Sequence record: MN850601.1
Direction: 5' to 3' (one strand)
DNA: 64,000 nucleotides
Source of the DNA: Escherichia phage inny
Position 1 is the stretch's first letter, and each line of letters begins with the position of its first letter. Below are positions 8,000 through 34,375 of the stretch, one piece after another. The notes below the pieces were generated by a model that was not told the DNA's origin, ran no database searches, and was given only the letters and a program-made list of their open reading frames with translations. The position numbers and the translations under genes were made by a program.

Positions 8000-8893
8000 A
8001 TGAAAGTTAGTATTCTACATGGTGTTGACTGTTATGTTACTGATGTAGACGTTAAAGTCTTTACATTCTCTGGTGGAGAACAACATGTTCAACTAGACAC
8101 GAATCTATCAGGTTTCAATCATGCTACAGACAGAATCTTACTCTCTTTAGAAGTAAGATCTGCTAAAGACTTGATGACTTTGGTTATGACTAAGAATGCA
8201 TTGGACAATATGCTATATCATAAACCATATTGTGTTGATTTACTCATGTTGTATGTGCCGTATGCACGACAAGACAGAGTGTGTGAGCCTGGGGAAGCAT
8301 TCGGAGTTAAAGCCTTTGCTTCTATAATTAATTCATTAAATTTCTCACGTGTTATCGTTGCTGATCCACATAGTGATGTTACTCCGGCAGTGTTTGACAG
8401 ACTCTGTGTAATACCTCAAGAAGAGATTGCTTACGAAACTTTAAAGTGGAAGTTACGTATGGAGAATTTTGCTCTTGTTAGTCCTGATGGTGGTGCTCTT
8501 AAGAAAATATTTAAATTATCTAAGAAAATGTCTTTAGATGTGTTCTGTGCAGAGAAGGTTAGAGATACTGCAACAGGTGCTATTGTTCGTACAGACATTT
8601 CTGTACAGGATTTCAATAAGCGTAACCTGATGATCGTAGATGATATCTGTGACGGCGGTAGAACTTTTATTGAATTGGCTAAAGTGCTACGTGCTCGTAA
8701 CGCAGGTAAGATTGAGTTATATGTTACACACGGTATCTTTTCTAAAGGTCTTAAAGAGTTAAGTGAGCACTTTGACTGCATTCATTCTCTTAATGTGTGG
8801 GAAGATAACATCCAAGAAGATTCCGGTGTTCTTGTTAAGAATCAGTCAGATTTGCAACAACAAATTGTATCTCCATACGTGTGGAATTTTTAA
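8000..8893 (+). CDS. prs: ribose-phosphate pyrophosphokinase family protein (Prs-like; possibly an ADP-ribose pyrophosphokinase)
   Basis: 297 aa; Prs hallmark YVPYARQDR and PRPP-binding loop NLMIVDDICDGGRTF; AAGGAG SD. Confidence 0.85.
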   Translation: MKVSILHGVDCYVTDVDVKVFTFSGGEQHVQLDTNLSGFNHATDRILLSLEVRSAKDLMTLVMTKNALDNMLYHKPYCVDLLMLYVPYARQDRVCEPGEAFGVKAFASIINSLNFSRVIVADPHSDVTPAVFDRLCVIPQEEIAYETLKWKLRMENFALVSPDGGALKKIFKLSKKMSLDVFCAEKVRDTATGAIVRTDISVQDFNKRNLMIVDDICDGGRTFIELAKVLRARNAGKIELYVTHGIFSKGLKELSEHFDCIHSLNVWEDNIQEDSGVLVKNQSDLQQQIVSPYVWNF

Positions 8894-8903
8894 ATAATAA
8901 GTG

Positions 8904-8932
8904 TTGACAATAGGGAGTATGCTTAGTAAGAT
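8904..8932 (+). promoter_or_regulatory. sigma70-like promoter TTGACA-N17-TAAGAT embedded in an 8-bp inverted repeat
   Basis: -35 at 8904..8909, -10 at 8927..8932; GGGAGTAT (8912..8919) and ATACTCCC (8930..8937) form a perfect palindrome across the -10. Confidence 0.55.
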
Positions 8933-8964
8933 ACTCCCACACTAACAAACAAGGAGACATAACT

Positions 8965-10698
8965 ATGAATATTTTTGCACCTTTTGCTACTGATTGGTAT
9001 AAACCTGGTCACAAGCAGATGTACAACCAAAATACAAAACTCATTTTCTCTAATTTAACTCCTCGTAATGATAAAAACTTTGCACACTATGCAGATCGTG
9101 AAGCACGTGGTGTAATTGTTTTAGGTATTCGTCGAGCAGTTACTGATGCTCTTGTAACTATGTGGGATAGCTTCTTTAAAATGTCTCGTAGTGCAGCAGT
9201 AAATAAATTTTATCGTATGTCTAAAAATGCATTAGGTGCTTCTGCTCCTTCTGCTGAATGTTGGGGAGAATTGCACGATTTAGGTTATCTTCCGCTGGAA
9301 GTTCGATCTCTGCCAGAAGGTGTTTTGTGTCCTATTGGTGTTCCTGTGTTTACTGTGCATAATACTTTAGAAAAATTCTTTTGGTTAACTAACTATGTGG
9401 AAACACTATTGTCAGATGAAACTTGGAAGACAATGACTAATGCTACAGCAGCTTTTCAGTATAAGCGTATTGCTATGGCATATGCGATGGCAACGTGTGA
9501 TAATATTGATCATGTTAACTTCCAGTGTCATGATTTTAGCCTACGTGGTTTAAGTAATATCGAAGATGGTTATAAGAGTGGTATCGCTCATTTGGCATCT
9601 TTCACAGGAACAGATAACATTCTGGCTATTGAGACTGTGCATGATTATTATGGTATTGATTATGATCAGTTTGTTGCAGGTTCTATTCCGGCAACAGAAC
9701 ATTCAGTAGCAACGACTAACATTGGAGCTATTGTTGAAGATCTGAAGAAACATTTCCCACATCTTAAAGATGATGTTGATGGGCTTCGTTATGTAGCAGA
9801 GAAAGAGTTTCTTCGCCGCTATATTGAAGAAATTGTTCCAGAAGGTTTTTGTTCATATGTAGCAGATTCTTATGACTACTGGGCTGTCTTGACTCGCATT
9901 CTGGTCGAGTTGAAAGATTCCATTATGTCACGAAATGGTCGTCTTGTTATTCGTCCAGATTCAGGAGATCCGGTTAAAGTTGTTGCAGGATACAATGTTG
10001 AATCTTTTGATAACTATGAAGACCTTTTAAATAATGGTATTGCTACAGCCACTGAAGTAGTTCATTTGGCTGATGTTAATAAGTATTACAATGTTCTTCA
10101 GGATTGCAGTGTTGCTGATTGTATTGATGAAACTTATGAGATTCCTTATTGTGAAGCAGTAGGTTCTATTCAAATCCTTTGGGAAGTGTTTGGTGGTACT
10201 ATCAACCGAAAAGGCTACAAGGTTCTTGATCAGCACATCGGTATGATTTATGGTGATTCTATTACTGTTGAACGAGAACACGAAATCTTACGCCGACTGA
10301 AGAAGAAAGGTTTTGCAGCTTCCAATATTGTATTTGGTGTTGGTAGTTATACTTATCAGTTCAATACACGAGATACTTTTGGTTTTGCTGTTAAAGCAAC
10401 AGGTAGTATCATCGGTGAACACGAAATTTTGGTAAGTAAGGAGCCTAAAACTGATCCTGGTAAACGTTCTGCAAAAGGTTTTATTAAGGTTGTTAAGGAT
10501 ACAAACGGTAAACTTTCTCTCGTGGATAATCTTTCTTTTAAAGATATTCAAGATGAAGACAATGAGTTAAAAGTTATCTTCAGGGATGGTACGGTTATTA
10601 CACCACAAGTAGAAGGACGTGATGAAACATTTACGGATATCCGCAATCGTGTTGATGTAGAGGTTCTTCGTACTATGGGAACCATCCAGGTTGACTAA
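8965..10698 (+). CDS. nadV: nicotinamide phosphoribosyltransferase family protein (NAMPT/NadV-like)
   Basis: 577 aa; N-terminal ATDWYKPGHKQMY matches the NAMPT ATDSYK...H.KQY signature; adjacent to the Prs-like gene. Confidence 0.85.
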   Translation: MNIFAPFATDWYKPGHKQMYNQNTKLIFSNLTPRNDKNFAHYADREARGVIVLGIRRAVTDALVTMWDSFFKMSRSAAVNKFYRMSKNALGASAPSAECWGELHDLGYLPLEVRSLPEGVLCPIGVPVFTVHNTLEKFFWLTNYVETLLSDETWKTMTNATAAFQYKRIAMAYAMATCDNIDHVNFQCHDFSLRGLSNIEDGYKSGIAHLASFTGTDNILAIETVHDYYGIDYDQFVAGSIPATEHSVATTNIGAIVEDLKKHFPHLKDDVDGLRYVAEKEFLRRYIEEIVPEGFCSYVADSYDYWAVLTRILVELKDSIMSRNGRLVIRPDSGDPVKVVAGYNVESFDNYEDLLNNGIATATEVVHLADVNKYYNVLQDCSVADCIDETYEIPYCEAVGSIQILWEVFGGTINRKGYKVLDQHIGMIYGDSITVEREHEILRRLKKKGFAASNIVFGVGSYTYQFNTRDTFGFAVKATGSIIGEHEILVSKEPKTDPGKRSAKGFIKVVKDTNGKLSLVDNLSFKDIQDEDNELKVIFRDGTVITPQVEGRDETFTDIRNRVDVEVLRTMGTIQVD

Positions 10699-11004: not shown

Positions 11005-11115
11005 ATGTCTACAGAAATTATTTTTGGCTTATCTGTTTTTATTGCTATTGTATCTTTTGTATGCGGTTATACACTAGGTTACAGATCAAGAAAAAATATT
11101 GTAAAAACTAGTTGA
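11005..11115 (+). CDS. small hydrophobic protein (36 aa)
   Basis: unlisted short ORF; AAGGAAA SD 7 nt upstream of ATG; single hydrophobic helix IIFGLSVFIAIVSFVCGYTLGY. Confidence 0.3.
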   Translation: MSTEIIFGLSVFIAIVSFVCGYTLGYRSRKNIVKTS

Positions 11116-11445: not shown

Positions 11446-11521
11446 GGTTCCATAGCTCACTGACGAGAGCGCACACCTCATAAGTGTCGAGGGCAGGGAT
11501 TGTAACCCTGGGGAACCACCA
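11446..11521 (+). tRNA. tRNA-Met/Ile2-type (anticodon CAT), non-canonical T-loop
   Basis: hand-folded cloverleaf: acceptor GGTTCC/GGAACC, D-stem GCTC/GAGC, anticodon loop CTCATAA, encoded CCA; T-loop ATTGTAA (A54, T58) instead of TTCGAAT. Confidence 0.6.
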
Positions 11522-11552
11522 TTTAAAAGGAGGTGCTATGCATCTCCTATAT

Positions 11553-11638
11553 GCAAGTGTGGTGGAATTGGTGATACACATTGTGCTTAAAACGCAACGC
11601 TTAAATGATTGAGGGTTCGAATCCCTCCACTTGCACCA
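11553..11638 (+). tRNA. tRNA-Leu (anticodon TAA), type II
   Basis: acceptor GCAAGTG/CACTTGC, 3-bp D-stem, anticodon loop CTTAAAA, long variable arm, T-arm GAGGG-TTCGAAT-CCCTC, A73, CCA. Confidence 0.85.
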
Positions 11639-11640
11639 AC

Positions 11641-11746
11641 GCCTAGTAGGGTATTTGGTAATTCCGAGGCCATCAAAGCCTGAAAAATATGTTAGACCGT
11701 TTTGTCTAACTAAATACGAAATATGGTTCGATTCCATAACTAGGCT
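11641..11746 (+). tRNA. atypical 106-nt tRNA-like element (candidate anticodon TCA)
   Basis: perfect 7-bp acceptor GCCTAGT/ACTAGGC, D-like arm with GG loop, 4-bp stem with loop CATCAAA, extra 7-bp hairpin GTTAGAC-CGTTTT-GTCTAAC, canonical T-arm TATGG-TTCGATT-CCATA; no CCA encoded; too long for a standard tRNA. Confidence 0.3.
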
Positions 11747-11781
11747 CCCGATTTAAATAGTAATTTTTTAATAAAAATATC

Positions 11782-11810
11782 TTGACATTTACTTAGTTTT
11801 TTGTTATAGT
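11782..11810 (+). promoter_or_regulatory. sigma70-like promoter TTGACA-N17-TATAGT with extended TG
   Basis: -35 at 11782..11787, TG at 11802..11803, -10 at 11805..11810; 12 nt upstream of the tRNA at 11822. Confidence 0.6.
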
Positions 11811-11821
11811 CATTATGAAAA

Positions 11822-11903
11822 CGGGGTGTATCTCACCTGACTTCTAATCAGGCGTTAACCGAGTAATTGGAGTATGCAGGTTCGAATCCTGTCACCCCGG
11901 CCA
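11822..11903 (+). tRNA. tRNA-Arg-like (anticodon TCT) lacking a canonical D-arm
   Basis: acceptor CGGGGTG/CACCCCG, only 7 nt (TATCTCA) before a perfect anticodon arm CCTGA-CTTCTAA-TCAGG, 23-nt variable region with CCGA-GTAA-TTGG hairpin, T-arm GCAGG-TTCGAAT-CCTGT, G73, CCA. Confidence 0.45.
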
Positions 11904-11921
11904 AAAAGTTTTAAAAACTAC

Positions 11922-11951
11922 TTGACAAGCAAGATAGTTTTATGTTAGATT
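11922..11951 (+). promoter_or_regulatory. sigma70-like promoter TTGACA-N17/18-TTAGAT
   Basis: -35 at 11922..11927, TG then -10 around 11945..11951. Confidence 0.55.
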
Positions 11952-11966
11952 TAAAGTATGGTAACA

Positions 11967-12056
11967 GGAAGGTAGGGCGCAGCGGTGCGCAACCAGGTTT
12001 GAACCCTGGCCCATTGTAGCGATACGGTGATGGTTCGACTCCATTATCTTCCTCCA
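11967..12056 (+). tRNA. tRNA-Ser (anticodon TGA), type II
   Basis: acceptor GGAAGGT/ATCTTCC, anticodon arm CCAGG-TTTGAAC-CCTGG, 19-nt variable arm, T-arm GATGG-TTCGACT-CCATT, CCA. Confidence 0.85.
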
Positions 12057-12075
12057 AATTCGCTTAGGAGCTTTA

Positions 12076-12227
12076 TGAATTATAAAACTATTGGACAGAT
12101 TGTTACCGGAGTTAAGATTGTAAATAATAAAGTTGTTTATGAGTATTCTAATCTTCAACAATCTGAAGATGGTAAGAATATTCGTATGGTAAAAGCAGAA
12201 CAAAAAGATTCCGGTTGTTTTGAATAA
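12076..12227 (+). CDS. small hypothetical protein (50 aa)
   Basis: ORF track 12027..12227 starts inside tRNA-Ser; trimmed to ATG at 12076 behind TAGGAG SD. Confidence 0.3.
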
Positions 12228-12235
12228 TTAAGAAC

Positions 12236-12321
12236 GGTAGATTGGTGAAATGGTAGCCACAACAGTTTGCTAAACTGTCGTCGGAAACGGCGTGTAGGTT
12301 CAAGTCCTACATCTACCGCCA
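12236..12321 (+). tRNA. tRNA-Ser (anticodon GCT), type II
   Basis: acceptor GGTAGAT/ATCTACC, 3-bp D-stem GTG/CAC, anticodon arm ACAGT-TTGCTAA-ACTGT, long variable arm, T-arm GTAGG-TTCAAGT-CCTAC, G73, CCA. Confidence 0.85.
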
Positions 12322-12377
12322 AGTTATCTTTAATGTAGCTTGTTGCTCTTAGTTGCTTGGTGTAACTTTTTGGAAGG

Positions 12378-12439
12378 ATGGCTGCAACCATCTTACTTTA
12401 ATAGAGTAAACTTTCGGCAGATGGCCCCCACCATCTTAC
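12378..12439 (+). repeat. two near-identical hairpins (GGATGG-loop-CCATCTTAC), spaced about 45 nt
   Basis: 12378..12397 AAGGATGG-CTGCAA-CCATCTT and 12422..12439 AGATGG-CCCCCA-CCATCT; both followed by TTAC; stems resemble the T-stem of the upstream tRNA-Ser. Confidence 0.5.
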
Positions 12440-12491
12440 CGATACCTCATAGTTAGTGGTGCGAACACTGGCTATTTTAAAGATAATTTAT

Positions 12492-12567
12492 ACATCGTTA
12501 GCTTAGTTGGTAGAGCAAGGGGCTTTTAACTCCAAGGTCGAAGGTTCGAATCCTTCACGATGTACCA
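12492..12567 (+). tRNA. tRNA-Lys (anticodon TTT)
   Basis: perfect acceptor ACATCGT/ACGATGT, D-arm GCTT-AGTTGGTA-GAGC, anticodon loop CTTTTAA, T-arm GAAGG-TTCGAAT-CCTTC, A73, CCA. Confidence 0.8.
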
Positions 12568-12572
12568 AACAC

Positions 12573-12659
12573 GTAGGTATCGCATAGCGGCAATTGCTGG
12601 AGACTGTAAATCTCCTGCCCTTCGGGGCTTCGTTGGTTCGAGTCCAACTACCTGCACCA
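12573..12659 (+). tRNA. tRNA-Tyr (anticodon GTA), type II
   Basis: acceptor GTAGGTA/TACCTGC, anticodon arm GGAGA-CTGTAAA-TCTCC, variable hairpin GCCC-TTCG-GGGC, T-arm GTTGG-TTCGAGT-CCAAC, A73, CCA. Confidence 0.85.
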
Positions 12660-12666
12660 AATTAAA

Positions 12667-12751
12667 GATGGATTGGCCTAGTGGTTGGGCGACGGACTGT
12701 TAATCCGTGAACGAAAGTTCTAGCAAGGTTCAAATCCTTGATCCATCGCCA
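12667..12751 (+). tRNA. type II (Ser-like architecture) tRNA with anticodon GTT (Asn-type)
   Basis: acceptor GATGGAT/ATCCATC, 3-bp D-stem GCC/GGC, perfect anticodon arm ACGGA-CTGTTAA-TCCGT, 15-nt variable arm with GAAC-GAAA-GTTC hairpin, T-arm CAAGG-TTCAAAT-CCTTG, G73, CCA. Confidence 0.7.
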
Positions 12752-12830
12752 AATAGTGCTTGTAGAGTTAATAGAAACCTCTAGAATTTTCTAGAATTGT
12801 AGGTATCAAATCCTACCAAGCAAATATTTT

Positions 12831-12905
12831 GCTCCTATCGTATAACGGCTATTACGGTTGCCTTGTAAGCAACTTATCAGGGTTCGAGTCCTTGTGGGAG
12901 CACCA
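12831..12905 (+). tRNA. tRNA-Thr (anticodon TGT)
   Basis: acceptor GCTCCTA/TGGGAGC (one G-U), anticodon arm GTTGC-CTTGTAA-GCAAC, T-arm CAGGG-TTCGAGT-CCTTG, A73, CCA. Confidence 0.8.
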
Positions 12906-12927
12906 ATTTAACTCTAAAGGAGTGTAT

Positions 12928-13251
12928 GTGACAGAAAAAGAGTTAGAGAAATATTTTAATATCAATGTTTTCGATGGTTTTGATGATATTGAAGATGTTG
13001 AAAGATATTATGAAGTAGAGTTAGATAAGGATAACATTGTAATTCTTTCTGCCACTTATGATTGTGCATATTATGAAGGCGAATCTCACGTTTATTTCTA
13101 TGATATGAAAACATCTTTGTTTTATGAAGTACACGCATATCATTGTTCTTGTTATGGCTTAGAAGGTCAGTGGGAACCTGAAGAAATAGGTGATTTGAGC
13201 TTTACGGTTGCATATCTAAACAGACGTGGTGCATCTACTATTTTAAAATAA
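12928..13251 (+). CDS. hypothetical protein (107 aa)
   Basis: ORF track 12829..13251 begins inside tRNA-Thr; trimmed to GTG at 12928 behind AAGGAG SD. Confidence 0.5.
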   Translation: MTEKELEKYFNINVFDGFDDIEDVERYYEVELDKDNIVILSATYDCAYYEGESHVYFYDMKTSLFYEVHAYHCSCYGLEGQWEPEEIGDLSFTVAYLNRRGASTILK

Positions 13252-13265
13252 ATATTAAAAGCCTC

Positions 13266-13295
13266 TTGACAAAGGGGCTAATAATATGTTAGAGT
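13266..13295 (+). promoter_or_regulatory. sigma70-like promoter TTGACA-N18-TGT-TAGAGT
   Basis: -35 at 13266..13271, TG at 13287..13288, -10 at 13290..13295; upstream of tRNA-Gly. Confidence 0.55.
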
Positions 13296-13306
13296 AATAT
13301 TGTTAA

Positions 13307-13381
13307 GCGGGTATAGTGTTAATGGTAGCATATGAGGTTTCCACCCTCCAGGTGCAGGTTCAAGTCCTGTTACTCGCTCCA
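13307..13381 (+). tRNA. tRNA-Gly (anticodon TCC)
   Basis: acceptor GCGGGTA/TACTCGC, anticodon loop TTTCCAC, T-arm GCAGG-TTCAAGT-CCTGT, U73, CCA. Confidence 0.8.
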
Positions 13382-13480
13382 AGATTATTTAAATGGAATC
13401 GCTAGAGAAAATTTCTCTTTTCGCTCATGGTTTTCTCCTTCAAACTCTAGCGGTTCTTTTTAAGTGATTTTTAGTTTTAT

Positions 13481-13555
13481 TGGAGATTAGCCTAGTGGGA
13501 AGGCAACGGCCTTTGAAGTCGTGATGACTAGGTTCGATTCCTAGATCTCCAGCCA
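13481..13555 (+). tRNA. tRNA-Gln (anticodon TTG)
   Basis: acceptor TGGAGAT/ATCTCCA with U1-A72, D-arm GCC-TAGTGGGAA-GGC, anticodon arm ACGGC-CTTTGAA-GTCGT, T-arm CTAGG-TTCGATT-CCTAG, G73, CCA. Confidence 0.8.
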
Positions 13556-13562
13556 ATATTTA

Positions 13563-13638
13563 CAGTGCGTAGCGCAGTTGGTAGCGTGGGAGCCTTGGAC
13601 GCTTCAGGTCGCAGGTTCGAGTCCTGCCGCACTGACCA
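13563..13638 (+). tRNA. tRNA-Pro (anticodon TGG)
   Basis: acceptor CAGTGCG/CGCACTG, D-arm GCGC-AGTTGGTA-GCGT, anticodon arm GGAGC-CTTGGAC-GCTTC, T-arm GCAGG-TTCGAGT-CCTGC, A73, CCA. Confidence 0.85.
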
Positions 13639-13643
13639 AATTT

Positions 13644-13718
13644 GCAGAGATAGCTGAGACGGATTAGTGCTACCCTGAAAAGGTAGAAAGGATGGATCGT
13701 TACCATCTCTCTGCACCA
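13644..13718 (+). tRNA. tRNA-Phe (anticodon GAA), non-canonical T-loop
   Basis: perfect acceptor GCAGAGA/TCTCTGC, perfect anticodon arm CTACC-CTGAAAA-GGTAG, T-arm GATGG-ATCGTTA-CCATC (A54 and T58 swapped relative to consensus), A73, CCA. Confidence 0.7.
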
Positions 13719-13795
13719 GATAACACCATCCAAGGAGAATACTTGGTTAACTGTCAATAGCACATTGAGGCTTCTTACAGTGGTGTACTTATTAT

Positions 13796-13880
13796 GGCTA
13801 AGTGGTGGAATGGTATACACGATACGCTTAGAACGTATTGCCCCAAGGGATTGTGAGTTCGAGTCTCACCTTAGCTACCA
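13796..13880 (+). tRNA. tRNA-Leu (anticodon TAG), type II
   Basis: acceptor GGCTAAG/CTTAGCT, 3-bp D-stem GTG/CAC, anticodon arm ATACG-CTTAGAA-CGTAT, variable hairpin, T-arm GTGAG-TTCGAGT-CTCAC, A73, CCA. Confidence 0.85.
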
Positions 13881-13895
13881 AATTATTACAGGTTT

Positions 13896-13974
13896 CGCGG
13901 GATAGAGGAGTCTGGTCGTCCTCGCCAGTTTCATATGCTGGAGATCGTAGGTTCAAATCCTACTCCCGTTACCA
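13896..13974 (+). tRNA. tRNA-Met/Ile2-type (anticodon CAT), second copy, unpaired 1-72
   Basis: acceptor CGCGGGA/TCCCGTT with C1 opposite U72, D-arm GAGG-(11 nt)-CCTC, anticodon arm CCAGT-TTCATAT-GCTGG, T-arm GTAGG-TTCAAAT-CCTAC, A73, CCA. Confidence 0.65.
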
Positions 13975-14032
13975 ATAAATACCTCCCTTCTGGTGTAATG
14001 ATTAAATTACATTGACACTTCAAGGAACTCAT

Positions 14033-14115
14033 AGCCGGGTAGATTTAAAAGAGTATGGTACTCAATATGGCTCCAAACCATAGATCAGGGGGTTCGATTC
14101 CTCACCTTGCTGCCA
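14033..14115 (+). tRNA. tRNA-Trp-like (anticodon CCA) with expanded D region
   Basis: anticodon arm TATGG-CTCCAAA-CCATA, T-loop TTCGATT, G73, CCA; best acceptor AGCCGGG/CCTTGCT has one C-U mismatch and leaves about 9 extra nt before the D-stem GAGT/ACTC. Confidence 0.4.
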
Positions 14116-14120
14116 ATTAT

Positions 14121-14196
14121 TGTGGTATCGTACAGATGGTTAGTACACTCGACCGATAATCGAGAAACAACGGTTCGACTCCGTTTACCACGACCA
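14121..14196 (+). tRNA. tRNA-Ile (anticodon GAT)
   Basis: acceptor TGTGGTA/TACCACG, D-arm GTAC-AGATGGTTA-GTAC, anticodon arm CTCGA-CCGATAA-TCGAG (C33), T-arm AACGG-TTCGACT-CCGTT, A73, CCA. Confidence 0.75.
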
Positions 14197-14310
14197 AACT
14201 CCGTGCCAGCGGTGTCTTCGAAGAACAAGCCTAGTTCCTTCTGAGATGGAGGGGTGCGACTCCTTAACGCACAACATACTACTACTACTAAATACTTATC
14301 AGGAGATATC

Positions 14311-33273: not shown

Positions 33274-33909
33274 ATGGGAATACCATTTGATTTAAAACTT
33301 GATGGTTCTAATGATTTAGTGATGGTGGATGGTGATTTAACACTAACCACAACTAAAAGTGAAATTGCATCACAGACGCTTGGAATAACACTTAGAACTT
33401 TCCGTGGAGAATGGTTCCTCAATTCTAATTTTGGGGTTCCATATCTGCAAGAGATTATTGGTGTTGCCAAGAAGAAAGAGATTGTTGATCGCATTTTCTT
33501 ATCAACTATAGCAAGTAATGTTTATATAGATAATATCAATTCCTACACATCCTCTTATGATAGAGATGATAGGTATTACTCAATGAACGTTACTGTTACA
33601 GTTGGTGAACAAGTTGTTAGTGCTCTATTCAGTACACAGCCGTCTGAAGAATATATCTATCCAGAAGCTGGTGATGATAATGCAGCAATCACTTGTGAAG
33701 CATTTGAAATTGTTGAATCTGCAAATAGACTCTATCGCTTTATTAACATTGTTGGTCTTCCTAAAGATACTTATTCTACTTGGTGGAATGAGTGGTCTAA
33801 CGAGGCATTGATTGAAAAATACCTTGTTAACGAAGCCAATAAAGGTCTTGCAACCAATTACAACTATGCTATAACAGCAACAATGGGAGCTACAAATAAT
33901 AATGGCTGA
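33274..33909 (+). CDS. putative baseplate protein (211 aa)
   Basis: ORF track; tail module. Confidence 0.4.
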   Translation: MGIPFDLKLDGSNDLVMVDGDLTLTTTKSEIASQTLGITLRTFRGEWFLNSNFGVPYLQEIIGVAKKKEIVDRIFLSTIASNVYIDNINSYTSSYDRDDRYYSMNVTVTVGEQVVSALFSTQPSEEYIYPEAGDDNAAITCEAFEIVESANRLYRFINIVGLPKDTYSTWWNEWSNEALIEKYLVNEANKGLATNYNYAITATMGATNNNG

Positions 33910-34375
33910 TTTAACTACAATCAAGGTGACTGATCTACCTGTAACAACATCTGTTTCAGACACAGATTATTTTGTAACAGATCAATCAGGCATCACTAAG
34001 AAAACATCATTACGTGTTCTTCTTGCGGGTGCTGGTGTTACACGAAATCGTCTTTCTGCAAGGGGTACTGTTACAAATACCCTAGCTTTAGATATTAGCA
34101 CGGCAGAGTATTTCTCTGCCACTTTATCTAGTCCAACTTGCAGTATTTCATTTAGTAATGTTCCAGTTACAACTAACATTGTTCAAAACTTTACGCTATC
34201 CCTACGTCAAGGCAGTGGAGCAAATAAAGTAACGTGGCCTCAATCTGTTAAATGGAGTTTTGGTCGCGCTCCTGTTTTGAGTTATAAACAGGGAGCTACA
34301 GATATTTTTGAATTTGTTAGTTATGATAATGGAGCTACCTGGATAGGTAGTTTAGTGATGGCAGGAGTGATTTAA
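33902..34375 (+). CDS. putative tail protein (157 aa)
   Basis: ORF track; overlaps neighbours by a few nt. Confidence 0.4.
   Translation: MADLTTIKVTDLPVTTSVSDTDYFVTDQSGITKKTSLRVLLAGAGVTRNRLSARGTVTNTLALDISTAEYFSATLSSPTCSISFSNVPVTTNIVQNFTLSLRQGSGANKVTWPQSVKWSFGRAPVLSYKQGATDIFEFVSYDNGATWIGSLVMAGVI

What the first reader, a model, noticed from the sequence alone, without database searches (positions are those of the whole stretch)
11446..14196. Dense array of about 18 tRNA or tRNA-like genes
Hand-folding gives plus-strand tRNAs with anticodons CAT (two copies), TAA, TAG, TGA, GCT, TTT, GTA, GTT, TGT, TCC, TTG, TGG, GAA, GAT, plus TCT, CCA and one oversized element; nearly all encode the 3' CCA. 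Several anticodons (Lys UUU, Tyr GUA, the GUU tRNA, Arg UCU) match known targets of anticodon nucleases, consistent with replacement of cleaved host tRNAs rather than simple codon adaptation. Coordinates are by eye and may be off by a base or two.
Basis: partly seen in the sequence, partly recalled or inferred. Interest (0 to 1): 0.5.

Follow-up and report, generated by a model that had tools for sequence, protein, structure and literature searches.

The report
Phage tRNA gene cluster, partly non-canonical
This is the known tRNA gene cluster of a phi92-like E. coli phage, which mainly supplies tRNAs for the codons the phage over-uses; one unannotated member is an arginine tRNA with an oddly rewired fold that recurs in many unrelated phages.

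Summary
Window 11446-14196 (+) holds 15 tRNA genes by ARAGORN and 14 by Rfam, 16 in union. It also holds an atypical Trp(CCA) gene, an oversized tRNA-like element and a T5-"RNA3"-like element. All 17 decoder genes encode CCA.

The window is a phi92-like coliphage (Justusliebigvirus), 98.8% identical to ESCO32. Its 15 standard tRNAs are already annotated and published, so the array itself is already known.

The encoded anticodons are enriched for codons the phage over-uses (p=0.002). Tyr, Asn and Lys are the three most over-used amino acids. The Lys, Tyr and Asn anticodon loops are identical to the host's. However, the Lys and Thr anticodon stems and the initiator-like tRNA differ from the host at the published PARIS, P2-OLD and VapC sites.

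The best lead is the "TCT" element (11822-11903). It belongs to a phage-restricted family of Arg tRNAs (UCU, CCU, ACG). In this family a 3-bp D-like stem encloses the anticodon arm, with strong covariation support. It is missed by ARAGORN and unannotated in the phi92, ESCO32 and FelixO1 records. I found no description of it.

The parts
11446..11521 (+). tRNA with anticodon CAU, probably tRNA-Ile2 (AUA reader after lysidine modification); odd T-loop AUUGUAA
   Evidence: ARAGORN. It is below the Rfam gathering score. The closest relative tested is T5 tRNA-Ile2(CAU), 56/81. The Ile2 assignment is an inference.
11553..11638 (+). tRNA-Leu(UAA), type II
   Evidence: ARAGORN; Rfam 57.1 bits.
11641..11751 (+). 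Oversized tRNA-like element: 7-bp acceptor, weak D-arm, loop CAUCAAA, variable region of about 40 nt with a 7-bp hairpin, T-arm, ends UCCC
   Evidence: Rfam tRNA-Sec 29.4 bits, below the gathering score of 47. Fold. It is absent from phi92 and some other genus members. A homologue in the N4-like Salmonella phage UTK0002 has a clean D-arm and a CCA end, and the 4:69 acceptor pair is compensated.
11782..11810 (+). sigma-70-type promoter TTGACA-17-TATAGT with TG extension, about 12 nt upstream of the Arg gene
   Evidence: 11 of 12 matches.
11822..11903 (+). Non-canonical tRNA-Arg(UCU): acceptor, U8 A9 U10, C11-U12-C13, A14, anticodon arm (loop CUUCUAA), CGUUAACC, G-A-G (pairs with 11-13), UAAUUGGA, GUAU, T-arm, G73, CCA
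   Evidence: Rfam tRNA 38.6 bits with the D-arm deleted and a 20-nt insert. Missed by ARAGORN. Family covariation. Own model R1 gives 101.6 bits.
11922..11951 (+). sigma-70-type promoter TTGACA-18-TAGATT upstream of tRNA-Ser(UGA)
   Evidence: 10 of 12 matches.
11967..12056 (+). tRNA-Ser(UGA), type II
   Evidence: ARAGORN. 85.7% identical to T5 tRNA-Ser1(UGA). The T5 record notes that this T5 tRNA works as a suppressor when its anticodon is changed.
12075..12227 (+). Small ORF, 50 aa, unknown function (phi92 gp111 homologue)
   Evidence: phrog_22441, E 4.8e-39. Annotated in relatives. No Pfam match.
12236..12321 (+). tRNA-Ser(GCU), type II
   Evidence: ARAGORN; Rfam 54.2 bits.
12322..12491 (+). 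Conserved spacer with two related hairpins (GATGG-N6-CCATCTTAC)
   Evidence: Folds (second half z = -3.3). About 71% conserved in Phapecoctavirus ukendt. Function unknown.
12492..12567 (+). tRNA-Lys(UUU)
   Evidence: ARAGORN; Rfam 68.9 bits. The anticodon loop equals the host's; the stem is AGGGG/CUCCA against host GUUGA/UCAAU.
12573..12659 (+). tRNA-Tyr(GUA), type II
   Evidence: ARAGORN; Rfam 48.1 bits. The anticodon stem-loop differs from the host's by one base pair.
12667..12751 (+). tRNA-Asn(GUU) with a long variable arm (GAAC-GAAA-GUUC) and G73; a type II body on an Asn anticodon
   Evidence: ARAGORN, 85 nt; Rfam 56.5 bits. The variable-arm stem is compensated in ukendt (GUUC/GAAC) and PVP-SE1 (GAGU/ACUC). 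The Asn tRNAs of the host, T5 and FelixO1 are 76-78 nt.
12756..12824 (+). tRNA-like RNA without an anticodon loop or CCA; homologue of T5 'RNA3 putative tRNA-like RNA'
   Evidence: Shared motif UA-GAGUUAAG(G)UAAACC and T-loop YAUCRAA. It lies directly 3' of tRNA-Asn in the window, ukendt and T5. Fold z = -2.9.
12831..12905 (+). tRNA-Thr(UGU)
   Evidence: ARAGORN; Rfam 56.6 bits. Anticodon stem GUUGC/GCAAC against host ACUGA/UCAGU.
12928..13251 (+). Small ORF, 107 aa, unknown function (phi92 gp112 homologue)
   Evidence: phrog_8792, E 1.4e-43. Annotated in relatives.
13266..13295 (+). sigma-70-type promoter TTGACA-18-TAGAGT upstream of tRNA-Gly
   Evidence: 10 of 12 matches.
13307..13381 (+). 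tRNA-Gly(UCC)
   Evidence: ARAGORN; Rfam 55.1 bits.
13383..13470 (+). Long conserved hairpin followed by a T-run (possible terminator or processing element)
   Evidence: Fold z = -4.1. 85% conserved in FKP3 and 82% in ukendt.
13481..13555 (+). tRNA-Gln(UUG)
   Evidence: ARAGORN; Rfam 61.4 bits.
13563..13638 (+). tRNA-Pro(UGG)
   Evidence: ARAGORN; Rfam 65.5 bits. 93% identical to PVP-SE1 tRNA-Pro.
13644..13718 (+). tRNA-Phe(GAA), T-loop AUCGUUA
   Evidence: ARAGORN; Rfam 49.2 bits.
13796..13880 (+). tRNA-Leu(UAG), type II
   Evidence: ARAGORN; Rfam 58 bits.
13896..13974 (+). Initiator-like tRNA(CAU): C1xU72 mismatch, loop UUCAUAU, no three G-C pairs in the anticodon stem
   Evidence: ARAGORN; Rfam 48.9 bits. 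Closest to E. coli fMet (57/79) and T5 fMet (57/81).
14038..14115 (+). Atypical tRNA-Trp(CCA): weak acceptor stem, extra nucleotides 5' of a short D-arm, G73, CCA
   Evidence: ARAGORN only with -ps. Rfam tRNA-Sec 22.4 bits. The FKP3 homologue has a 6-bp acceptor, and its D-stem GAGC/GCUC against the window's GAGU/ACUC is compensatory. Unannotated in relatives.
14121..14196 (+). tRNA-Ile(GAU) with C33 instead of U33
   Evidence: ARAGORN; Rfam 57.3 bits. Loop CC[GAU]AA, as in PVP-SE1.
14197..14272 (+). Conserved non-coding tail of the array, function unknown
   Evidence: 82% conserved in ukendt and 77.5% in FKP3. The fold is not better than shuffles.

Best explanation
This is the tRNA gene cluster of a virulent phi92-like coliphage (genus Justusliebigvirus). 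It lies between NAD-salvage genes and the lysis and terminase genes.

Seventeen CCA-encoding tRNA genes and at least two tRNA-like RNAs sit on the + strand. They lie behind several near-consensus sigma-70 promoters, interleaved with two small ORFs. I infer that they are transcribed as multi-tRNA precursors and cut out by the host's tRNA-processing enzymes.

The main job of the cluster is to top up the host tRNA pool for the codons and amino acids that this 37%-GC phage uses much more than E. coli does. These are the A-ending codons AGA, ACA, CUA, CCA, CAA, GGA, UUA, UCA and AUA, and the amino acids Tyr, Asn and Lys.

A secondary, inferred benefit is that some of these tRNAs (Lys, Thr, the initiator-like one and perhaps Arg and Asn) differ from the host copies where known defence tRNases bind or cut. 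They could therefore keep translation going when host tRNAs are destroyed.

What is shown: gene identity, homology with the annotated cluster, the match with codon demand and the sequence differences. What is inferred: expression, processing, charging and nuclease resistance.
For: tRNA calls come from two independent methods.

The region is 98.8% identical over 4 kb to Escherichia phage ESCO32, with the same 15 tRNAs annotated, and 98.5% identical to phi92. The same 15-16 tRNA set is published for the genus (PMC12210895).

Four promoters match 10-11 of 12 positions with TG extensions.

Codon test:
- It uses 17,492 phage codons from 61 window ORFs and 21,709 codons from 69 E. coli K-12 genes.
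- Eleven of the 14 standard phage anticodons are in the top 15 of 40 by phage/host demand. Mann-Whitney p=0.002, or p=0.0016 with Arg-UCU and Trp included.
- AGA is the most over-used codon (5.1x), followed by ACA (3.2x) and CUA (2.4x).
- Tyr, Asn and Lys are the three most enriched amino acids.

They were set against published cleavage data for PARIS (40|41; a 31-39 swap gives resistance; PMC11464382) and P2-OLD (CNG motif; PMC12445682).

T5, whose tRNA-Lys and tRNA-Tyr were shown to rescue infection, has the same layout of promoters, small ORFs and tRNA-like RNAs.
Against: - The host codon sample is only 69 genes near tRNA loci, and the phage sample is one 64-kb window that is mostly structural genes.
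- The wobble assignments are simplified.
- Four encoded anticodons (Ile-GAU, Phe-GAA, Met-CAU, Ser-GCU) read codons that are not over-used (ratios 0.75-1.02). Some over-used groups (Asp, Ser-GGA, Pro-GGG) have no phage tRNA.
- Published tRNA-abundance work is cited as not directly supporting pure codon compensation (PMC11464382 discussion).
- No expression, processing or charging data exist here.
- Several members have odd T-loops or odd cores and might be weak or inactive.
Confidence: 0.75

Rival explanations
1. One reading: the array exists mainly to replace host tRNAs cut by anticodon nucleases and other defence tRNases. It would do so either with resistant variants or by sheer over-supply from strong promoters. 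Codon adaptation would be secondary.
For: Lys-UUU, Tyr-GUA, Thr-UGU, Asn-GUU, Arg-UCU and an initiator-like tRNA all match published targets.

The window Lys stem differs at every pair. Like T5's PARIS-resistant tRNA-Lys, it has a changed 31-39 pair and a mismatched 27-43 pair.

Thr has the C28U/G42A change that removes the P2-OLD motif. The initiator-like tRNA differs at the VapC site.

Arg and Asn have altered bodies: a rearranged core and an added arm. Near-consensus promoters fit the over-supply model proposed for T5 tRNA-Tyr.
Against: - At least nine of the 15 standard anticodons (Gly, Pro, Gln, both Leu, both Ser, Phe, Ile-GAU) have no published nuclease in the papers read. They are the classical rare-codon set, or in the case of Phe, Ile-GAU and Ser-GCU are not over-used at all.
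- The colicin E5 targets His and Asp are missing.
- The anticodon loops of Lys, Tyr and Asn equal the host's, and the Tyr and Asn stem-loops differ by one pair or one base only.
- Phage tRNAs are only about 55-78% identical to host tRNAs overall, so differences at any given site are expected by chance.
- In the P2-OLD study the C28U/G42A change alone did not protect.
- The codon-demand test is significant.
Confidence: 0.25
2. General independence from the host: the array buffers the phage against global loss of host tRNAs after host shut-off and chromosome degradation. It would also buffer against differences in tRNA pools among the many E. coli and Salmonella strains this broad-host-range group infects.
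For: This hypothesis is summarised in PMC10264068 (citing Yang et al. 2021). phi92-like phages had the broadest lysis host range in the BASEL study. The array covers 14-15 amino acids, including abundant ones (Lys, Ile, Phe) whose codons are not rare.
Against: The set is not complete: there is no Ala, Val, Asp, Glu, His or Cys tRNA and no major Arg or Leu tRNA. It is biased toward over-used codons, which a general buffer does not predict. No data here address host tRNA decay in this phage.
Confidence: 0.2
3. A partly decaying, horizontally shuffled gene cassette: some members are relics kept by linkage, not by function. Candidates are the oversized element, the Trp-like gene, the first CAU tRNA and Phe with its odd T-loop.
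For: The oversized element is absent from phi92 and several genus members. It has a weaker D-stem and CCC instead of the CCA of its UTK0002 homologue. The window's Trp acceptor stem has two mismatches and three G-U pairs, against a good stem in FKP3. tRNA genes are shared between unrelated phages: Ser-UGA is 85.7% identical to T5's and Pro 93% to PVP-SE1's. HNH endonuclease genes interrupt the array in relatives.
Against: Most members are conserved across genera, with compensatory changes even in the odd ones: the Trp D-stem, the Asn variable arm, the RNA3-like stems and the Arg stems. All 17 decoders keep an encoded CCA.
Confidence: 0.15

Closest known systems
tRNA cluster of phage phi92 and other Justusliebigvirus (FR775895; ESCO32 OM386658; BME3, PMC12210895)
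   Same: It is the same locus at 97-99% identity, with the same gene order, the same 15 standard tRNAs, the same two small ORFs and the same flanks (NAPRTase upstream; spanin and terminase downstream).
   Different: Nothing essential differs. The window carries the roughly 110-nt oversized element that phi92 lacks. In the phi92 and ESCO32 records the Arg(UCU), Trp(CCA) and RNA3-like elements are not annotated.
tRNA region of phage T5 (AY543070)
   Same: Both have a dense run of tRNA genes with many strong early promoters, small ORFs and 'tRNA-like stable RNAs with unknown functions'. The window's 12756-12824 element is a homologue of T5 RNA3 and, as in T5, follows tRNA-Asn. T5 tRNA-Lys and tRNA-Tyr are the experimentally shown cases of rescue from PARIS and retron-Eco7.
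   Different: T5 is an unrelated phage family. Its Asn tRNA is type I. No rearranged Arg tRNA occurs in the 10 kb of T5 examined (best R1 hit 38 bits). None of the rescue experiments was done with a phi92-like phage.
Phage T4 tRNA cluster (eight tRNAs plus two stable RNAs)
   Same: From my own knowledge, T4 encodes Arg-UCU, Ile-CAU, Thr-UGU, Ser-UGA, Pro-UGG, Gly-UCC, Leu-UAA and Gln-UUG. All eight anticodons are present here, and T4 is the classical codon-supplement set. T4's cluster also holds a homing endonuclease (PMC2330249, listed).
   Different: The window has nine more tRNAs. To my knowledge, T4's tRNA-Arg has a normal cloverleaf.
D-arm-lacking mitochondrial tRNAs (for example metazoan tRNA-Ser(AGY)) and engineered use of them in E. 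coli (PMC11551756)
   Same: The Arg(UCU) gene has no hairpin between the acceptor and anticodon stems. General tRNA models align it with the D-arm deleted.
   Different: Here nucleotides 11-13 pair with a triplet 3' of the anticodon arm, so a short D-like stem exists but encloses the anticodon arm. A conserved GGA-containing strand follows it. The RNA is longer than a normal tRNA (82 nt), not shorter. It occurs in phages of enterobacteria, not in organelles.
Type II (long-variable-arm) tRNAs Leu, Ser, Tyr and Sec, and allo-tRNAs
   Same: The Asn(GUU) tRNA and the oversized element carry a base-paired extra arm between the anticodon and T arms.
   Different: To my knowledge, and per the identity review, Asn is not a type II family in any cellular system. 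The Asn gene keeps the AsnRS-type anticodon and G73. It has A2-U71 rather than the G2-C71 of E. coli tRNA-Ser. Which enzyme charges it is untested.

Membership tests
tRNA (Rfam RF00005 / ARAGORN cloverleaf) | Score at or above the curated threshold of a tRNA covariance model | tested here: met
   Fourteen matches of 38.6-68.9 bits against a gathering score of 29. CAU-1 (11446) and Ser-UGA (11967) are called by ARAGORN only. Trp needs relaxed settings.
tRNA (Rfam RF00005 / ARAGORN cloverleaf) | Four-arm cloverleaf with a D hairpin between the acceptor and anticodon stems | tested here: met
   Met for the 15 ARAGORN genes. Not met for Arg(UCU) 11822-11903, where 4 nt replace the 15 D-arm positions. 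Only partly met for Trp.
tRNA (Rfam RF00005 / ARAGORN cloverleaf) | Expression, 5'/3' processing and aminoacylation | not testable with these tools
   This needs tRNA-seq, Northern blots or acid gels of infected cells.
Justusliebigvirus (phi92-like) tRNA cluster | Near-identical sequence and the same gene order as annotated genus members | tested here: met
   98.8% identity over 100% of a 4-kb query to ESCO32. Fifty-four records cover at least 80% of the query. Annotations.
Codon-compensating phage tRNAs (Bailly-Bechet-type) | Encoded anticodons read codons that are more frequent in the phage than in the host | tested here: met
   Mann-Whitney p=0.002. Eleven of 14 are in the top 15 of 40 anticodon groups. 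Exceptions are Ile-GAU, Phe, Met and Ser-GCU.
Nuclease-evading phage tRNAs (T5 tRNA-Lys vs PARIS, phage tRNA-Thr vs P2-OLD, T5 tRNA-Tyr vs retron-Eco7) | Same anticodon as the host tRNA that the nuclease destroys | tested here: met
   Lys-UUU, Tyr-GUA and Thr-UGU are present.
Nuclease-evading phage tRNAs (T5 tRNA-Lys vs PARIS, phage tRNA-Thr vs P2-OLD, T5 tRNA-Tyr vs retron-Eco7) | Sequence change at the cleavage or recognition site relative to the host tRNA | tested here: inconclusive
   Lys: the stem is fully changed, including the 31-39 pair and the 40|41 step (met). Thr: the CNG motif is lost but the stem is still 5 bp, and the paper found that motif change alone is insufficient. Tyr and Asn: the stem-loops are nearly identical to the host's, and the determinants for PtuAB are unknown.
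Nuclease-evading phage tRNAs (T5 tRNA-Lys vs PARIS, phage tRNA-Thr vs P2-OLD, T5 tRNA-Tyr vs retron-Eco7) | The tRNA resists cleavage and rescues infection or cell growth in the presence of the nuclease | not testable with these tools
   This is an experimental criterion. No phi92-like tRNA is named in the passages of the papers that I read.
Anticodon-loop-mutation criterion of van den Berg et al. 2023 | The phage tRNA carries a substitution in the 7-nt anticodon loop relative to the host isoacceptor | tested here: not met
It is met for Ser (both), Gly, Gln, Pro, Phe, Leu (both), Ile and the initiator-like tRNA.
T5 RNA3 'putative tRNA-like RNA' | Shared core sequence, tRNA-like acceptor and T stems, no anticodon loop, position directly 3' of tRNA-Asn | tested here: met
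   Motif UA-GAGUUAAG(G)UAAACC and T-loop YAUCRAA in the window (12756-12824), ukendt (L085 2589-2679) and T5 (33877-33949). The synteny is the same. The stems differ by compensatory changes.
tRNA-Sec (Rfam RF01852), for the oversized element | Score at or above the gathering threshold; 8-bp acceptor with a 5-bp T stem (to my knowledge); U33 and anticodon UCA | tested here: not met
   29.4 bits against a threshold of 47. The acceptor is 7 bp. The loop is CAUCAAA, with A at position 33.
Rearranged-core phage tRNA-Arg (family defined here) | Acceptor, anticodon and T stems plus a helix between nucleotides 11-13 and the triplet 5' of UAAnUGGA, all kept by compensatory change; an Arg anticodon; an A20-like A after GG | tested here: met
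   31 distinct sequences: 99.2% of cells paired, 18 of 20 pairs with double changes, covariation 0.834 against 0.196 in shuffles and at most 0.164 in slid controls. Helix 11-13:40-42 is paired in 31 of 31. Among 36 distinct sequences the pairings are CUC:GAG 29, CGG:CCG 3, CGC:GCG 2, CAG:CUG 1 and CAU:AUG 1. Anticodons are UCU, CCU and ACG only. GGA is present in members found with a pattern that did not require it.

The most novel reading that the evidence does not exclude
The 'TCT' element (11822-11903) may be a working arginine tRNA of a structural class that has not been described.

Its D-stem is reduced to 3 bp and its strands are wired differently. The stem encloses the whole anticodon arm, and the D-loop-like strand (UAAnUGGA, keeping G18, G19 and the ArgRS determinant A20) comes after the stem instead of inside it.

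The class is widespread in tRNA clusters of unrelated phages: Felixounavirus, Sugarlandvirus, Mydo-like Klebsiella phages, jumbo coliphages and many uncultured viral contigs. It is almost absent from bacterial genomes. It is confined to Arg anticodons (UCU, CCU, ACG). It nearly always stands in for, rather than beside, a canonical tRNA-Arg(UCU).

If it is charged and used, it would be a natural non-cloverleaf tRNA decoding AGA in E. coli. Its altered body could also be a way to escape tRNA-Arg-specific nucleases such as colicin D-type toxins.

The type II tRNA-Asn in the same array, and the extra GNRA-capped mini-hairpins in relatives' Lys and Glu tRNAs, may reflect the same pressure.
Probability: 0.45. 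Interest if true: 0.75.

Novelty: already known. Interest (0 to 1): 0.4.

Why it matters
As a whole the array is ordinary. Large virulent coliphages carry such clusters, and this one is already in GenBank and in print. The value of the check lies in three points.

1. It shows with numbers that the anticodon set of this phage follows its codon and amino-acid demand. That tempers the currently fashionable 'anti-nuclease' reading. It also pinpoints the few tRNAs (Lys, Thr, the initiator-like one) whose stems do differ at published cleavage sites and could be tested directly.

2. It shows that standard annotation misses four conserved RNA genes in this well-studied phage group.

3. It exposes a phage-specific family of arginine tRNAs with a rewired core. 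[quoted passage not shown] If this family functions in translation, that generalisation would need to be extended to account for tRNAs that phages express and use in E. coli. The family would also give a natural test case for how ArgRS, EF-Tu, RNase P and the ribosome tolerate a changed tRNA topology.

Tried and rejected
- ARAGORN intron mode calls the oversized element tRNA-Leu(CAA) with a 24-nt intron. I rejected this. The 'intron' is simply part of a long variable region, the UTK0002 homologue folds without it, and introns of that kind are not expected here.
- ARAGORN mitochondrial mode calls 12756-12824 'Arg(tct)' and 12375-12440 'Ile(aat)'. I rejected both. The first has a 4-nt loop on a 6-bp hairpin and is the T5 RNA3 homologue. 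The second has no other support.
- A simple 'D-armless plus variable hairpin' model for the Arg gene (hairpin CCGA-GUAA-UUGG, minimum-free-energy fold) is not supported. Its fourth pair is broken in many members and the others never covary. The 11-13:40-42 helix does covary. RNAalifold itself predicts only the three classical stems, so the extra helix rests on covariation alone.
- I searched for the rearranged fold with other anticodons using model R1 over about 1.4 Mb of held loci. Only Arg anticodons turned up.
- No rearranged member was found in 10 kb of the T5 tRNA region or in 115 kb of E. coli K-12. One hit was found among 185,579 species genomes, on a MAG contig.
- Five of the seven full-text literature searches looked for D-arm-lacking, non-canonical or long-arm phage tRNAs or T5 tRNA-like RNAs. 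None found a description of the rearranged Arg tRNA or of a type II Asn tRNA. The library lacks most subscription journals, so this is weak evidence of novelty.
- Pfam finds nothing for the small ORFs inside and beside the array.
Rfam/Infernal and ARAGORN were used instead.

Full report
**Observation**

ARAGORN on the whole 64-kb window reports 15 tRNA genes. All are on the + strand and all lie between 11446 and 14196. Their anticodons are CAT (twice), TAA, TGA, GCT, TTT, GTA, GTT, TGT, TCC, TTG, TGG, GAA, TAG and GAT.

Rfam's tRNA model at its curated threshold gives 14 matches of 38.6-68.9 bits, with E 6.5e-13 to 1.4e-4 for the whole window. Thirteen coincide with ARAGORN genes. Rfam misses the first CAU gene (odd T-loop). 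It assigns Ser(UGA) to the related tRNA-Sec model below threshold.

With relaxed settings ARAGORN also calls tRNA-Trp(CCA) at 14038-14115. The 'oversized element' is 11641-11748, at 29.4 bits on the tRNA-Sec model against a threshold of 47. I found one more tRNA-like element at 12756-12824.

All 17 decoder genes encode the 3' CCA.

**What the window is**

The 4 kb around the array is 98.8% identical over its full length to Escherichia phage vB_EcoM_ESCO32 and 98.5% identical to phi92. Fifty-four phage records cover at least 80% of it. These are Justusliebigvirus (Stephanstirmvirinae), virulent myoviruses of about 147 kb.

The ESCO32 and phi92 records annotate the same 15 tRNAs in the same order, together with the same two small ORFs. 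A 2025 paper lists the same set for the genus (PMC12210895).

Upstream lie a phosphoribosyl-pyrophosphate-synthetase-like gene and a NAPRTase-family gene. Downstream are small ORFs, a spanin and the large terminase.

**Anatomy**

Four near-consensus sigma-70 promoters with TG extensions point rightward, at 11112, 11782, 11922 and 13266. The last three stand just before Arg(UCU), Ser(UGA) and Gly(UCC).

Two ORFs of 50 and 107 aa sit between tRNAs. They belong to phage protein families of unknown function.

Three non-coding stretches are conserved in other genera, or in the divergent genus member FKP3:
- 12322-12491, which holds two related hairpins.
- 13383-13470, a long hairpin followed by a T-run (z = -4.1).
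- 14197-14272.

The layout of promoters, small ORFs and extra stable RNAs is that of the phage T5 tRNA region. The T5 record annotates several 'tRNA-like stable RNAs with unknown functions'.

**The unusual members**

(a) Arg(UCU), 11822-11903. The Rfam alignment deletes the D-arm and inserts 20 nt after the anticodon arm.

BLAST shows the element at 82-86% identity in about 200 phage records outside the genus. These include FelixO1, Sugarland, Mydo-like Klebsiella phages, jumbo coliphages and T5-like and rV5-like phages. It is almost always unannotated, and once it is labelled 'tRNA-OTHER'.

Pattern scans of IMG/VR gave dozens more members. On 31 distinct sequences, 99.2% of cells pair and 18 of 20 pairs show double changes. 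Covariation is 0.834, against 0.196 for shuffles (0 of 500 reach it) and at most 0.164 for slid controls.

Besides the acceptor, anticodon and T stems, nucleotides 11-13 pair with the triplet just 5' of a conserved UAAnUGGA. Among 36 distinct sequences the pairings are CUC:GAG 29, CGG:CCG 3, CGC:GCG 2, CAG:CUG 1 and CAU:AUG 1. A second sequence family has the same topology, and by eye its helix is 5-6 bp (the automated register was off).

A short D-like stem therefore exists, but it encloses the anticodon arm. The GGA-containing D-loop-like strand follows it. RNAalifold does not predict this short helix, so it rests on covariation.

A covariance model built from the family scores members at 76-104 bits and looser relatives at 49-71 bits. 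Every canonical tRNA of phages, T5 and E. coli scores at most 38 bits.

The only anticodons found in this fold are UCU, CCU and ACG, all arginine. Family members keep C35, mostly G or A at position 73, and an A after GG. These correspond to the bacterial ArgRS determinants A20, C35, U/G36 and A/G73 (PMC9976931).

Other observations on the family:
- Of 37 loci with the rearranged gene, only one has a separate canonical tRNA-Arg(UCU).
- The relatives ukendt and PVP-SE1 have a canonical Arg(UCU) at the corresponding place and no rearranged one.
- PVP-SE1's canonical gene shares its acceptor and T arms almost exactly with the FelixO1 and Sugarland rearranged genes (by eye).
- A scan of one genome for each of 185,579 bacterial and archaeal species found a single hit, on a MAG contig.
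- AGA is the codon most over-used by this phage (5.1x), and the window has no other AGA reader.

I infer that this is a functional arginine tRNA. That is not shown.

(b) Asn(GUU), 12667-12751. This gene is 85 nt long and carries a variable arm GAAC-GAAA-GUUC. The arm is compensated in ukendt (GUUC/GAAC) and PVP-SE1 (GAGU/ACUC). The anticodon stem-loop differs from the host's at a single stem base (A27 for G27), and G73 is kept. Asn tRNAs of E. coli, T5 and FelixO1 are of ordinary length.

(c) Trp(CCA), 14038-14115. The acceptor stem is weak in the window but good in FKP3, and the D-stem is compensated.

(d) 12756-12824. This is a homologue of T5 RNA3. It has the same core motif, the same odd T-loop and the same position right after tRNA-Asn. 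A plain hairpin stands in place of an anticodon arm.

(e) The oversized element. It is present in only part of the genus. A cleaner homologue occurs in an N4-like Salmonella phage, with a 4-bp D-stem, U73 and CCA. Both copies share the loop CAUCAAA. Its role is unknown, and the window copy may be decaying.

(f) The two CAU genes. The first is closest to T5 tRNA-Ile2. The second is initiator-like, with a 1x72 mismatch.

(g) Ile(GAU) has C33.

**What the array does**

I fetched the cognate E. coli K-12 tRNA loci and compared each pair. I also compared codon use in 61 window ORFs with 69 K-12 genes.

Phage-encoded anticodons are concentrated among the groups whose codons the phage uses more than the host (Mann-Whitney p=0.002):

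| Anticodon | Phage/host codon demand |
|---|---|
| Thr-UGU | 3.2x |
| Leu-UAG | 2.4x |
| Pro-UGG | 1.8x |
| Gln-UUG | 1.6x |
| Gly-UCC | 1.6x |
| Tyr | 1.6x |
| Leu-UAA | 1.6x |
| Asn | 1.4x |
| Ser-UGA | 1.4x |
| Lys | 1.4x |
| Arg-UCU (the odd gene) | 5.1x |

The set also contains all eight anticodons of the classical T4 cluster (my own knowledge). Codon and amino-acid supply therefore explains most of the array.

The rival reading has some support. The window's Lys anticodon stem differs from the host's at every pair. Like T5's PARIS-resistant tRNA-Lys, it has a changed 31-39 pair and a mismatched 27-43 pair. PARIS cuts at 40|41, and a 31-39 swap confers resistance.

Thr(UGU) has lost the CNG motif that P2-OLD needs, but it keeps a full-length stem. 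The motif change alone did not protect in that study. The initiator-like tRNA differs at the VapC site.

On the other side, the Lys, Tyr and Asn anticodon loops equal the host's. The Tyr and Asn stem-loops are nearly host-like. His and Asp, which are colicin E5 targets, are absent. Most members have no known nuclease.

It is a plausible secondary role for a few members, not the explanation of the set.

**Comparison with what is known, and novelty**

The array is a member of the phi92-like tRNA cluster. It works like the T4 and T5 clusters. As such it is already known, and the defence-evasion idea is also published.

What I could not find described is the rearranged arginine tRNA family or the type II Asn tRNA. 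Five full-text searches aimed at such tRNAs found nothing. [quoted passage not shown] The library misses most subscription journals, so prior description cannot be excluded.

**Limits**

- No expression, processing or charging data are available.
- The codon samples are partial.
- The IMG/VR scans were pattern-based. The family's true range of sequences and anticodons is therefore under-sampled.
- The 3-bp helix is short and is supported by a handful of independent compensatory events.
- Comparisons with T4 and some identity rules rest on my own knowledge and are marked as such.

Noticed in passing
window 8000-10698: Directly upstream of the array lie a ribose-phosphate-pyrophosphokinase-like gene (Pribosyltran and Pribosyl_synth domains) and a NAPRTase-family gene (E 5.7e-38). 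To my knowledge such NAD-salvage pairs have been described as phage counter-measures to NAD-depleting defence systems. If so, two translation- or metabolism-rescue modules sit side by side.
   Followed up: partly
window 12667-12751; L085 2503-2588; L086 2495-2579: tRNA-Asn(GUU) carries a 4-bp variable arm capped by a GAAA tetraloop. The arm is kept by compensatory changes in three genera (Justusliebigvirus, Phapecoctavirus, Seunavirus). Asn is not a long-arm tRNA family in cells. Which synthetase charges it, and why the arm is kept, are open questions.
   Followed up: partly
L086 2348-2433 (PVP-SE1); L087 651-739 (FKP3): Relatives carry other 'decorated' tRNAs. PVP-SE1 tRNA-Lys(UUU) is 86 nt, with what looks by eye like an extra GAC-GCAA-GUC mini-hairpin in the D region. 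FKP3 tRNA-Glu(UUC) is 89 nt, with a GUAG-GAAA-CUAC variable arm. Extra GNRA-capped hairpins on phage tRNAs may be a recurring theme.
   Followed up: no
window 11641-11751; L205 601-713: The oversized tRNA-like gene has a homologue in an N4-like Salmonella phage (Ithacavirus UTK0002). Both share the anticodon-type loop CAUCAAA, which reads as UCA with A33. Both have a variable region of about 40 nt. The UTK0002 copy ends in U73-CCA. It could be a decoder of UGA, a decoy or a relic; I could not decide which.
   Followed up: partly
window 12756-12824; L203 (T5 33877-33949); L085 2589-2679: A tRNA-like RNA without an anticodon loop always follows tRNA-Asn in T5, phAPEC8-like and phi92-like phages, whether that Asn tRNA is type I or type II. 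The constant pairing suggests a link to tRNA-Asn processing or function.
   Followed up: partly
window 14121-14196; L086 1546-1621: tRNA-Ile(GAU) has C at position 33, where U is almost universal. PVP-SE1 has the same loop, whereas ukendt has U33.
   Followed up: no
window 11967-12057 vs T5; 13563-13638 vs PVP-SE1: Individual tRNA genes are shared between unrelated phage families at 86-93% identity (Ser-UGA with T5, Pro-UGG with PVP-SE1). The array therefore looks like a mosaic built by horizontal exchange. In relatives HNH endonuclease genes interrupt it.
   Followed up: partly
window 12322-12491, 13383-13470, 14197-14272: Three non-coding stretches inside and at the end of the array are conserved at 71-85% in Phapecoctavirus and in Klebsiella phage FKP3. 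Two of them fold much better than shuffled controls (z = -3.3 and -4.1). They may be further stable RNAs, processing sites or terminators.
   Followed up: partly
phage records MG065656, MG065639, MG065689: Records named 'Campylobacter phage' (146,366 bp) are 99-100% identical to this coliphage's tRNA region. The host label in those records looks doubtful.
   Followed up: no
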